A stretch of 36,905 nt of DNA from a virus. Taxonomy: Duplodnaviria > Heunggongvirae > Uroviricota > Caudoviricetes. The position numbers were made by a program. Position 1 is the first letter of the stretch. Each line of letters opens with the position of its first letter. Below are positions 1 through 3,000 of the stretch, one piece after another. The DNA lies in the IMG/VR virus record IMGVR_UViG_2645727604_000018, one strand, 5' to 3'.

Positions 1-3000
1 ATGCCAAACGTGTTTACCGGATCATGCGCCAGAATGCGCTGTTGCTTGAGCGAAAACCTGCTGTACCGCCATCGAAACGGGCACATACAGGCAGAGTGGC
101 CGTGAAAGAAAGCAATCAGCGATGGTGCTCTGACGGGTTCGAGTTCTGCTGTGATAACGGAGAGAGACTGCGTGTCACGTTCGCGCTGGACTGCTGTGAT
201 CGTGAGGCACTGCACTGGGCGGTCACTACCGGCGGCTTCAACAGTGAAACAGTACAGGACGTCATGCTGGGAGCGGTGGAACGCCGCTTCGGCAACGATC
301 TTCCGTCGTCTCCAGTGGAGTGGCTGACGGATAATGGTTCATGCTACCGGGCTAATGAAACACGCCAGTTCGCCCGGATGTTGGGACTTGAACCGAAGAA
401 CACGGCGGTGCGGAGTCCGGAGAGTAACGGAATAGCAGAGAGCTTCGTGAAAACGATAAAGCGTGATTACATCAGTATCATGTCCAAACCAGACGGGTTA
501 ACGGCAGCAAAGAACCTTGCAGAGGCGTTCGAGCATTATAACGAATGGCATCCGCATAGTGCGCTGGGTTATCGCTCGCCACGGGAATATCTGCGGCAGC
601 GGGCTTGTAATGGGTTAAGTGATAACAGATGTCTGGAAATATAGGGGCAAATCCACCGATTACGAAGAAACCGCTGCTGTTCCATTGTTCCCATTCGCTG
701 AGAGAGAATCCTTTTGTTCCTCTGTTTTAATCATTGATGATAGTTAGAATGTTGGTAATATATTGTCCATATTTATTTGCTATGAGGAGAAGATAATGGC
801 AGGGAATAGGCAACATTTTATTCCACGTTTTTTACAAAGAGGTTTTTCTAACGAAAAAAATGGGAAGTATTTTACTAACTGGTATAGAAAAGATTGTTTC
901 AAGGAAAACATGATAGTAGAGAATATTGGTTTGGAAAACAAGTTTTATTCTCACTATGGCGATTCAAGCGTTGATAAAAAAATAACAGAAAACGAAACAT
1001 ACAGTTATTCACGCATACTTAATAGTTTAGTCGATGGGACTTACAACCTAGACAACAGGAAAGATTTAGCCGAGTTTATTTATCATATGGAGATTAGAAC
1101 AAAAAACTTAAGAGAAAACATGATAGATTCATGGGCATATTTTGGTGAGCAATTAAAAAACAGATTGCTAGACAAGGAAACTCTTATTGATTATTTCCAA
1201 AGAAATCCAAAAACAATCAAAGAATTACTTCAAAATGAGTTAAATAAACTACCAATACCAGCAAGTCTACATGAGCAATATAACTCCATGTTTTTTGATA
1301 ACGTTCAATTATGGCTACCAAATGCTGCAGAAAAGATGCTATCAACATTAGTTCCGAAGTTTGAGCAAGAAATAATATCAAAAATACCTGAAATAGTAAA
1401 AAAGGTTCAGTTAGATGTTTTGGTTTCATCTGAGGATAAGAAAAGTAATATTTATAAGAATATGCATTACAAAGTATTGAAAACAAATCAATCTTTGATT
1501 TTAGGAGATAGTATTGTAATCTTTGAAGTGTCTGGGGAACGAAAGTTTAAGCCATTCTATGAAAGTAATGATGATTTAAAATGTATATATATTCCATTAG
1601 ATTCATATTCGCTACTTTATGCAACGCCAAATCCAGAAGATAAACCAAACGTGGATGGTATTAATAAGGCTATAGCACAGTGTTCATTTGATTTTTTCAT
1701 TAGTAAATTTCATAGTGATGAATGCCAAATATTTCGAAGTGAGATTGGTAAAAATGCGTTTATAGTTACAACCGAATATATTGACGAAATTCTAAGCAAA
1801 ATAATAACAGGGAATTAAAATAGGATTACTTAATGCAGGAGTTAGTGTCTAACTCCTGAATATATAATTAACGCATAATACGTTATGATGGTAATAGTAT
1901 TTTTAATCCATCAAACCGCGAGAAGTCTTACTTGCGGTCTGACGAAAATCATAACGTTCCACAACATCACCCTTAAACCAGATATCCAGTGATTTAATGT
2001 GTGCCGTGCTGCTATTGGTCAACAGAGCAAGGCCCGGTATGTAGTTAGATAGTTGGCTTTCTCCCGTCATACTTGAGTAGTTCCACATCTCCTGTCCATC
2101 ATTCGTAGCGCGTGTCTGAGGCTCTCCCAAGGCAGCAAGAATTTCTTGTTGGGTTGTTTTTCCATTGACGATTTTAACTTTAACCGTCTGATGATTTTCA
2201 TCAGTTAGGGATTTATTACCATGAACGGTACAGCCACCAAGTGGTAATATGATAAAAATAGCAAGTAATAATTTTTTCATTTTTGTTCCATAAATAGATG
2301 AAAGGTGAGACTCAGAAAACATACTTTTTAAATACCAGCATCCATCGCTCGCAAAGTTCGTGATTTGAAGTGCTTTTATTTTTCAAGGGGACATTAACTT
2401 TCCACATGGGATTTTTAATATCATCGGTTAAAATATTTAGGCCAGACCGTTTATTAGCTGAAAGTTGTTCTCTCCAGTTAGCAATAGCCGCATTATTCAT
2501 ACCTCGTAATGTTCCATTGCCATAAAACTTACCCCCCTCTGAAAGCGTATAATTTATTTCTCGAATTTGATCAAAAGTATATGTGCTGTCTTTATCTTTA
2601 TTGAAAATACGGACAGTATGTTTTTGAGTATCAATTACAATACCTGTCTGCTGGCATTCATACGAAAGAATGTCGCCGTCCAGAACTTCCGTGAAGCTGT
2701 TGTAGTGTTTTTTCTTTTGTATATCCGCTGCGGTCATGATAATGACGAAGAGCACTACTAAAAATACGATACCTGTTGCTTCCACTCTTACTTCCTCCAT
2801 GTTAATGAGTTAAAGAGACTGAACCCGCTCACAGAGCTTTGCTACGTTTTATACGTCCTACAGCACCAAACTCATGGCATCGGTCTCGGCGTTGCAAGGC
2901 TATCAGAACTTGAAATTACGATCGATATAAAAGATCGATAATGAGTTATTGATAGATTATAGCGATTGAATGTGCGATATCGATCGGTGATTAATTGTTA

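What the first reader, a model, noticed from the sequence alone, without database searches (positions are those of the whole stretch)
796..1818. DUF4238-like AT-rich gene immediately beside the IS2 end
A 340-aa protein with the N-terminal motif HFIPRFLQRGF, about 30 percent GC, starting about 140 bp after the IS2 terminus. This family is poorly characterised and tends to occur in variable or defence-island contexts. IS2 outward-reading transcription could drive it.
Basis: partly seen in the sequence, partly recalled or inferred. Interest (0 to 1): 0.45.

Follow-up and report, generated by a model that had tools for sequence, protein, structure and literature searches.

The report
Divergent DUF4238 gene, likely phage defence
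The gene is real and belongs to the DUF4238 protein family, one distant member of which is known to protect E. coli from phage T7; this copy belongs to a branch that defence-annotation models miss, and the neighbouring IS2 element looks incidental.

Summary
ORF 796-1818 (+) encodes 340 aa at 30.1% GC. It carries HFIPRFLQRGF at residues 7-17 and starts 141 bp after the IS2 right end (655). It passes Pfam DUF4238 (48.2 bits, cutoff 27).

It is 99.7% identical to an annotated E. coli E2348/69 protein and occurs in 89 of 5,426 complete E. coli genomes. None of these has this IS2 junction.

DUF4238 is a known single-gene anti-phage family: Rousset 2022 showed strong T7 resistance. This protein is only a remote relative of that one. 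Pairwise BLASTP is not significant and the PADLOC DUF4238-Pers model gives no hit, but hhalign gives 95.5% probability.

Its subfamily is large (876 clusters at E<=1e-30) and single-domain. It keeps near-invariant His, Asp, Glu and Arg residues and evolves under purifying selection (dN/dS 0.15-0.42). Confident AlphaFold models of both subfamilies match nothing in the PDB.

In other phyla it lies beside SIR2, Mrr, HEPN, OLD/Gabija-like and restriction-modification genes, with no conserved partner. In enterobacteria it sits in a conserved block of a tRNA-Asn mobilisable island.

Best reading: a stand-alone anti-phage enzyme of unknown chemistry. IS2-driven expression is not supported, because the native promoter-like site and ribosome-binding site are retained.

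The parts
1..655 (+). 3' part of an IS2 copy, cut by the window edge. The orfB integrase-core ORF is 24-644 and the right terminal repeat ends ...GGGGCAAATCCA at 655. It reads towards the DUF4238 gene.
   Evidence: rve/rve_3 domains; sequence; IS2 annotation of matches; insertion point seen against E2348/69
656..795 (+). Native upstream region of the gene, retained after the IS2 insertion. Promoter-like hexamers are TTGATG 734-739 / TAATAT 756-761 and ATGATA 737-742 / TATATT 759-764. The GAGGAG Shine-Dalgarno sequence is at 784-789.
   Evidence: Promoter scan gives one + strand site here, no better than shuffles; nearly identical in E. coli and Salmonella islands; TAnnnT hexamers occur only at 745-766
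796..1818 (+). DUF4238-family gene, 340 aa, 39.9 kDa, pI 6.0, with no hydrophobic segment. Subfamily-invariant residues H7, P10, F17, F50, Y51, D60, T64, E67, H97, R101, R106, D238, P267 and S297 are all present.
   Evidence: AlphaFold model pLDDT 88.6, pTM 0.82; dN/dS 0.15-0.42
1836..1858 (.). Perfect 10-bp hairpin (CAGGAGTTAG-TGT-CTAACTCCTG) between the convergent DUF4238 gene and the 139-aa gene. It is a likely two-way transcription stop but has no T-run.
   Evidence: Sequence; RNA fold centroid -14.4 kcal/mol, region z -2.57; not called by the terminator scan

Best explanation
The gene encodes a stand-alone soluble protein of a large, divergent subfamily of DUF4238. It is carried in the conserved part of an integrative mobilisable island (RepL, MobQ relaxase, TraD, type IV pilin/PilV shufflon, integrase) inserted at a tRNA-Asn gene.

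Its most likely role is single-gene anti-phage defence, like the distantly related DUF4238 protein from a P2 prophage hotspot that blocks T7.

Inferred mechanism: the protein is an enzyme. Its active site would be built from the N-terminal strand histidine (H7), acidic residues on the first long helix (D60, E67), an Arg-Thr...Arg pair at the junction of the next two helices (R101, T102, R106) and an aspartate after a core beta-strand (D238). This residue set suggests action on a phosphate-bearing substrate, either nucleic acid or nucleotide, once a phage component triggers it.

Shown: family membership, remote homology to the validated defence protein, conservation and purifying selection, lack of a fixed partner gene, defence-island neighbourhoods, and a confident model with no known fold relative.

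Inferred: the anti-phage role of this subfamily, enzymatic activity, the substrate class and the trigger. The IS2 copy is a strain-specific insertion that leaves the gene's own expression signals intact.
For: - Family and homology: Pfam DUF4238 at 48.2 bits. Profile-profile homology to the validated subfamily has 95.5% probability and E 1.4e-8 over 251 columns, with H7~H8, D60~D61, E67~E73, R101~R107, R106~R112, D238~D215 and P267~P246 aligned.
- Validated member: a single DUF4238 protein gives strong T7 resistance (PMC9122126). A DUF4238 domain also occurs in a TIR defence system (PMC11350192).
- Subfamily size: 2,884 cluster representatives at E<=1e-3 and 876 at E<=1e-30, nearly all 330-360 aa.
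- Conservation: polar residues are invariant across 147 representatives with median 27% identity to the window protein.
- Selection: dN/dS is 0.15-0.42.
- No fixed partner: the gene stays intact while the upstream 228-aa gene is split in E. coli and Salmonella. Immediately upstream genes in other phyla are unrelated to each other and include SIR2_2, Mrr_cat, HEPN, DUF4435/OLD-Toprim and DUF4145.
- Wider neighbourhood: the 148 nearest neighbours include Mrr_cat x5, AAA_15/21, HsdR, D12 methylase, KAP NTPase, HicB, and the PADLOC families GajA, ZorD, BrxH, DpdF, Old and SngC.
- Other contexts: one relative lies at the end of a P2-like prophage and another lies beside ThsB-TIR genes and a 1,729-aa helicase.
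- In the window: a Septu-like PDC-M62 pair and an NsnA/PD-T4-2-like DUF262 gene lie nearby.
Against: - No experiment exists for this subfamily.
- Pairwise BLASTP to the validated protein is not significant (E 0.16). The PADLOC DUF4238-Pers model gives no hit even at E<=10.
- Within enterobacterial islands the gene is syntenic backbone rather than cargo, which also fits an element-maintenance role.
- tblastn finds no relative in 50,697 phage genomes.
- Neighbourhood enrichment was not compared with a random-gene control.
- The catalytic reading rests on conservation alone.
- The gene is frameshifted in strain W137, so it is dispensable.
Confidence: 0.6

Rival explanations
1. The gene is a backbone gene of the tRNA-Asn mobilisable island. 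It would serve the element itself, for example by excluding competing elements, by post-segregational maintenance, or in transfer or replication control, rather than in defence against phages.
For: Position and order are conserved from E. coli and Salmonella to Pectobacterium and Brenneria: RepL, the 228-aa gene, DUF4238, a convergent 125/139-aa gene, then a 184-aa lipoprotein. The variable cargo sits elsewhere, next to the relaxase.
Against: The same subfamily occurs outside such islands in many phyla, next to unrelated defence genes, on a P2-like prophage and beside an IS. DUF4238 diverges faster (39-50% identity) than its island neighbours (69% and 53%). Its only tested relative is anti-phage.
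Confidence: 0.15
2. The gene is an IS2-activated gene. It would be silent or weakly expressed in its native state, and here it would be switched on by outward or read-through transcription from IS2, giving this strain a new phenotype.
For: IS2 orfB reads towards the gene and ends 141 bp upstream. No terminator-like site lies between them. IS2 is documented to form fusion promoters through a -35 in its right end (PMC9330008).
Against: No -10-like hexamer lies within about 90 bp of the IS2 end. [quoted passage not shown] The native promoter-like site and Shine-Dalgarno sequence are intact and conserved. The 89 genomes carrying the gene lack this insertion. In W137 an IS2 nearby accompanies a frameshifted gene.
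Confidence: 0.08
3. The gene is a decaying remnant with no current function, an AT-rich horizontally acquired gene silenced by H-NS and drifting.
For: GC is 30%. H-NS-like genes are carried on related islands. The upstream gene is a pseudogene, the relaxase has an internal stop, and the gene is frameshifted in W137.
Against: The ORF is a full-length 340 aa with every subfamily-invariant residue. dN/dS is well below 1 in all comparisons. It is annotated as an ordinary DUF4238 protein in the 20 listed of 89 complete genomes, 81 of them at 99% identity or more.
Confidence: 0.07

Closest known systems
Rst_DUF4238 (PADLOC model 'DUF4238-Pers'): the single DUF4238 protein from the P2-prophage hotspot of E. 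coli TA007 (plasmid pFR101, WP_001515549), Rousset et al. 2022, PMC9122126
   Same: Both fall in Pfam PF14022. Both are single-domain proteins of about 310-340 aa encoded by a stand-alone gene on a mobile element in E. coli. The predicted topology is the same: N-terminal strand-helix-strands, a long helical insert, then a C-terminal sheet. The aligned conserved His, Asp/Glu, Arg-Thr...Arg, Asp and Pro positions are shared. Neither has a PDB fold relative.
   Different: There is no significant pairwise similarity and no hit to the PDLC03000 model, which the validated protein matches at 718 bits. The Pfam score is 48 bits against 137. The window subfamily has its own invariant residues (Y51, T64, H97, S297) and lacks the HHH, RDFNR and W199 motifs of the validated clade. 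Its carrier is a tRNA-Asn mobilisable island, not a P2 hotspot. Anti-phage activity is untested.
TIR-containing E. coli defence system that includes a DUF4238 domain (Nat Commun 2024, PMC11350192)
   Same: A DUF4238 domain is used in an experimentally active anti-phage system in E. coli.
   Different: That system needs a TIR NADase domain. The window protein has no TIR domain and no conserved partner.
WP_000918421.1, 'DUF4238 domain-containing protein' of E. coli O127:H6 E2348/69 (NC_011601.1 2154506-2155528)
   Same: It is 99.7% identical at protein level and has the same flanking genes over 18.8 kb (window 656-19449) at 99.9% DNA identity.
   Different: E2348/69 has no IS2 upstream, and its island pair lies between yeeN and yeeO rather than beside mtfA.

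Membership tests
Pfam DUF4238 (PF14022) | Whole-protein score above the curated gathering cutoff (27 bits) | tested here: met
   48.2 bits, E 1.3e-12, residues 5-287 on profile positions 1-248 of 281. All 27 subfamily members tested hit the model.
Pfam DUF4238 (PF14022) | N-terminal H-x-x-(P/S)-x-x-(F/Y)-L-x-x-F motif and the shared core positions | tested here: met
   HFIPRFLQRGF aligns with HHFLSQCYLKGF of the validated protein. hhalign gives 95.5% probability and E 1.4e-8.
Rst_DUF4238 anti-phage system (PADLOC 'DUF4238-Pers') | Match to the system's protein model (PDLC03000) | tested here: not met
   No hit even at E<=10, while the validated protein scores 718 bits. DefenseFinder itself could not be run. 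From memory it uses the same-named model, so a miss there is also expected.
Rst_DUF4238 anti-phage system (PADLOC 'DUF4238-Pers') | Single-gene architecture with no obligatory partner | tested here: met
   Upstream genes across 23 loci are unrelated to each other beyond close relatives and belong to different families. The upstream gene is pseudogenised in E. coli and Salmonella while DUF4238 stays intact.
Rst_DUF4238 anti-phage system (PADLOC 'DUF4238-Pers') | Location in the P2 prophage hotspot | tested here: not met
   The window gene lies in a RepL/MobQ/PilV island at tRNA-Asn. One 35%-identical relative does lie at the end of a P2-like prophage.
Rst_DUF4238 anti-phage system (PADLOC 'DUF4238-Pers') | Measured protection against phage (T7) | not testable with these tools
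   This needs plaque assays. It has been shown only for the TA007 protein.
IS2 (IS3 family) | DDE integrase-core transposase and the IS2 right terminal repeat | tested here: met
   rve and rve_3 domains. Matches at 96-99% to elements annotated IS2 in thousands of E. coli records. The end lies at 655, shown by comparison with the uninterrupted E2348/69 sequence. Only the 3' 655 bp are in the window.

The most novel reading that the evidence does not exclude
The roughly 345-aa 'RQHFIPRF' clade has at least 876 clusters at 50% identity across many bacterial phyla. It may be a separate, currently unannotated single-gene anti-phage enzyme family. It would have a fold without solved relatives and a His/Asp/Glu/Arg active site of a kind not yet described in immunity. 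Present defence-finding models would miss all of it.
Probability: 0.4. Interest if true: 0.55.

Novelty: new member of a known kind. Interest (0 to 1): 0.35.

Why it matters
DUF4238 is one of the few validated single-gene defence families with no known domain assignment, structure or mechanism. This locus shows that the family has a large second branch that the PADLOC defence model does not recognise, so defence inventories probably under-count it. The two subfamilies share only a handful of invariant polar residues: His, Asp/Glu, Arg-Thr...Arg and Asp. That gives a short, testable list of candidate catalytic residues for the whole family. The E2348/69 copy is nearly identical and sits in a well-studied laboratory EPEC strain, so the experiment is easy to set up. 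The gene itself is already annotated in RefSeq, and the general idea that DUF4238 means defence is published, so the gain is incremental.

Tried and rejected
- Search for a known fold: Foldseek against the PDB found nothing usable for the window model (best E 0.18, TM 0.15) or for a model of the validated subfamily (best E 0.13). Recurrent weak hits to cyclic-nucleotide-binding and Hsp90 N-terminal domains (probability <=0.08) were judged to be noise.
- Viral structures: BFVD gave one hit, an uncharacterised protein of Stenotrophomonas phage Smp131 (E 3.6e-4). From memory this is a P2-like phage.
- Profile searches of PDB sequences found nothing.
- PHROGs and NCBIfam gave no hit for the protein.
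- Domain fusions in longer relatives were uninformative. One has a SEC-C tail and one a beta-propeller fragment.
- Conserved upstream partner gene: many loci have a same-strand gene of 260-320 aa ending just before DUF4238. This idea was rejected because those proteins are unrelated.
- IS2/flank hybrid promoter: rejected for lack of a -10 element.
- The paper on the IS2 junction promoter (PMC321474) is not held, so the exact -35 hexamer in the IS2 right end was not confirmed.
- The TIR-DUF4238 system sequences could not be obtained.

Full report
**1. Observation**

The ORF at 796-1818 on the + strand is real. It starts with ATG, encodes 340 aa, and is preceded by GAGGAG 6 nt upstream. Residues 7-17 read HFIPRFLQRGF. 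The gene has 30.1% GC and 25.2% GC3, against 42.3% for the window.

The first 655 bases of the window are the 3' part of an IS2 copy:
- An rve/rve_3 transposase ORF lies at 24-644.
- The terminal sequence GGGGCAAATCCA ends at 655.
- Alignment with the uninterrupted sequence of E. coli E2348/69 places the insertion point exactly between 655 and 656.

The start codon is therefore 141 bp from the IS2 end. The protein passes the Pfam DUF4238 gathering threshold (48.2 bits against 27, E 1.3e-12).

**2. Where the gene comes from**

- Window 656-19449 is 99.9% identical and colinear with E. coli O127:H6 E2348/69. There the gene is annotated as WP_000918421.1, 'DUF4238 domain-containing protein'.
- The gene is present in 89 of 5,426 complete E. 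coli genomes, always on the chromosome.
- None of those genomes has the window's IS2 junction.
- The nearest case, strain W137, has an IS2 about 380 bp further upstream, IS3 copies around it, and a frameshifted DUF4238 gene.

The carrier is an integrative mobilisable island. It encodes DUF6387, an AlpA-like regulator, H-NS-like proteins, RepL, a MobQ relaxase (pseudogenised here), TraD, a type IV pilin with a PilV shufflon, and a tyrosine recombinase. A second small island follows it, and then a tRNA-Asn gene.

**3. Position within the island family**

Related islands in Salmonella, an unnamed enterobacterial assembly, Pectobacterium and Brenneria keep the same local order:
1. RepL.
2. A 228-aa gene.
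3. DUF4238.
4. A convergent 125/139-aa gene.
5. In some islands, a DUF4755 gene.
6. A 184-aa lipoprotein.

The slot between the lipoprotein and the relaxase holds different cargo in each island. The window has a Septu-like PDC-M62 AAA+HNH pair. Salmonella has a 387-aa protein. Other islands have a DUF2971 protein or a SEC-C protein.

Within this island family, DUF4238 is therefore backbone-adjacent rather than variable cargo. It diverges faster than its neighbours: 39-50% identity between E. coli and Pectobacterium, against 69% and 53% for the neighbours. The upstream 228-aa gene is split into two frames in E. coli and Salmonella. DUF4238 stays full length, with dN/dS of 0.15-0.42. It is therefore functional and independent of that neighbour.

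**4. Relation to what is known**

DUF4238 already has one experimental function. Rousset et al. 2022 cloned a single DUF4238 gene from the P2-prophage hotspot of E. coli TA007 and found strong resistance to T7. They stated that the molecular function is unknown (PMC9122126). I took that protein's sequence from their supplementary table.

| Test | Validated TA007 protein | Window protein |
|---|---|---|
| Pfam DUF4238 score | 136.7 bits | 48.2 bits |
| PADLOC 'DUF4238-Pers' model | 718 bits | no hit at E<=10 |
| Pairwise BLASTP between the two | E 0.16, not significant | same comparison |

A profile-profile comparison of a 27-sequence alignment of the window subfamily with a 30-sequence alignment of the validated subfamily gives 95.5% probability and E 1.4e-8 over 251 columns. 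The two are homologous but belong to different, deeply separated branches.

A full-text search found 19 papers mentioning DUF4238, and none of the four checked reports a mechanism. A 2024 survey preprint lists Rst_DUF4238 among systems that cannot be assigned to any known domain family. One paper reports a DUF4238 domain within a TIR-dependent defence system.

**5. The subfamily**

A profile search of 1.84 billion cluster representatives found 2,884 proteins at E<=1e-3 and 876 at E<=1e-30. Nearly all are 330-360 aa and match end to end. A genome scan found members in Gammaproteobacteria, Betaproteobacteria, Desulfobacterota, Planctomycetota, Cyanobacteria, Bacteroidota and others.

I aligned 147 representatives with a median 27% identity to the window protein:
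- E67, R101, D238 and P267 are invariant.
- H7, P10, F17, F50, Y51, D60, T64, H97, R106 and S297 are at least 95% conserved.
- The window protein has all of these residues.

The positions that also align with invariant or near-invariant residues of the validated subfamily are H7, D60, E67, R101/T102, R106, D238 and P267.

**6. Structure**

AlphaFold2 with the subfamily alignment gives a confident model (pLDDT 88.6, pTM 0.82). It has an N-terminal strand-helix-three-strand unit, a nine-helix insert (58-221) and a C-terminal mixed sheet. A model of a 92%-identical relative of the validated protein has the same layout (pLDDT 89.4).

Foldseek finds no credible PDB relative for either model. The best E-values are 0.18 and 0.13, with TM no higher than 0.16. 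Profile searches of PDB sequences find nothing. In the viral structure library the only hit is an uncharacterised protein of Stenotrophomonas phage Smp131.

**7. Genomic context outside the island**

In an Erwinia genome the gene lies between a HicB antitoxin and an IS3-family transposase. In a metagenome-derived genome it lies beside a 1,729-aa DEAD/UvrD helicase, a NYN nuclease and two ThsB-TIR genes. In another genome it is the last gene of a P2-like prophage, after the CI repressor.

In 26 loci I called the three nearest ORFs on each side with a simple longest-ORF heuristic.
- Pfam families among the 148 neighbours scanned include Mrr_cat (5), AAA_15/AAA_21 (3 each), NA-iREase1 (3), DEAD/Helicase_C, ResIII, HicB, HsdR, a D12 methylase, a KAP NTPase and an ABC-3C component.
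- PADLOC families among them include GajA, AriA, ZorD, BrxH, DpdF, Old, SngC and PsyrT.

Many loci have a same-strand gene ending just before DUF4238. These are not one family. They include SIR2_2, Mrr_cat, HEPN+LprI, DUF4435/OLD-Toprim and DUF4145 proteins. The picture is a stand-alone gene in defence islands. I did not run a random-gene control, so the enrichment is qualitative.

**8. Mechanism**

The best-supported explanation is a single-gene anti-phage protein.

The residues conserved across both subfamilies are one His, two acidic residues, two Arg and one Asp, spread over the sheet and the first three helices of the insert. This is what one expects of an enzyme acting on a phosphate-bearing substrate, either a nuclease or phosphodiesterase, or a nucleotide-cleaving enzyme.

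The protein is soluble and mildly acidic (pI 6.0), with no membrane segment. A pore-forming effector is therefore unlikely.

Whether it acts by abortive infection or by direct attack on phage nucleic acid cannot be decided here. I put about 0.6 on the defence role and about 0.3 on the specific 'phosphate-substrate enzyme' reading.

**9. The IS2 idea**

- IS2 orfB does read towards the gene, and no terminator-like site intervenes.
- Known IS2 activation works through a fusion promoter, with a -35 in the right end and a -10 in the flank at about 17 bp (PMC9330008).
- The first TAnnnT hexamer after the IS2 end is at 745, 90 bp away.
- A 2025 reporter study chose the 150-bp IS2 right end because it had no detectable promoter activity. 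[quoted passage not shown]
- The 140 bp between IS2 and the ATG are native and nearly identical in E. coli and Salmonella islands. They carry promoter-like hexamers at 734-764 plus the Shine-Dalgarno sequence.

The insertion is best read as incidental. Weak read-through cannot be excluded.

**10. Verdict**

The finding is confirmed as described, and the defence-island intuition is reasonable.

The gene is already annotated as DUF4238 in RefSeq, and the family's defence role is published. The gene is therefore a new, divergent member of a known kind.

This analysis adds four points:
- This branch is large and is missed by the PADLOC defence model.
- It has no partner gene.
- Its fold has no solved relative.
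- Comparison of the two branches yields a short list of candidate catalytic residues.

Interest is moderate to low, at 0.35.

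Noticed in passing
window 3848-6313 (-): An AAA ATPase (4793-6313) and an HNH nuclease (3848-4780) match the PADLOC candidate system PDC-M62 A/B (E 5e-23 and 1.5e-41), with weaker PtuA/PtuB (Septu) similarity. The pair occupies the island slot next to the relaxase, which holds different cargo in related islands. This slot looks like the island's true variable hotspot.
   Followed up: partly
window 16004-19425: A second small island: a DUF262 protein (16004-17119) matches PADLOC NsnA (5.6e-83) and PD-T4-2_A (9e-44). It is followed by a HEPN-annotated protein (17119-17835) and its own integrase (17902-19236) abutting tRNA-Asn (19350-19425).
   Followed up: partly
window 19341-20506: After the tRNA-Asn gene the window continues into mtfA and tRNA-Ser(cga). 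In E2348/69 the same island pair lies between yeeN and yeeO. The islands therefore sit at a different tRNA-Asn copy, or there is an inversion between copies, in the source strain.
   Followed up: partly
window 1903-2322 (-): A 139-aa gene (125 aa as annotated in E2348/69), convergent with DUF4238, matches phrog_3135 of unknown function (E 4e-32). It is 69% identical in Pectobacterium islands, so it is better conserved than DUF4238 itself.
   Followed up: partly
L001 14158-14896; L042 and L045 7018-7757: The 228-aa gene upstream of DUF4238 in Pectobacterium and Brenneria islands has no Pfam hit. In E. coli and Salmonella it is split into 89-aa and 128-aa pieces in different frames. In the window IS2 sits about 105 bp after its remnant.
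   Followed up: yes
window 6422-7890 (-): The MobQ relaxase is broken into two overlapping ORFs and is annotated with an internal stop in E2348/69. The island may no longer be mobilisable.
   Followed up: no
window 12092-13547 (-): An MvdC/MvdD-type ATP-grasp gene (annotation from E2348/69) and small adjacent ORFs lie on the island. This may be a RiPP-like cassette. There were no PADLOC hits.
   Followed up: no
L009 (E. coli W137, NZ_CP163067.1 1937023-1949680): In this strain the DUF4238 gene is frameshifted. The block is riddled with IS2 and IS3 copies, and the DUF4755 and lipoprotein genes are also disrupted.
   Followed up: partly
L008 6627-9035: In a P2-like prophage a 450-aa protein with no Pfam hit ends 21 bp before a DUF4238 relative (35% identity). 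This could be a two-gene arrangement specific to that lineage.
   Followed up: no
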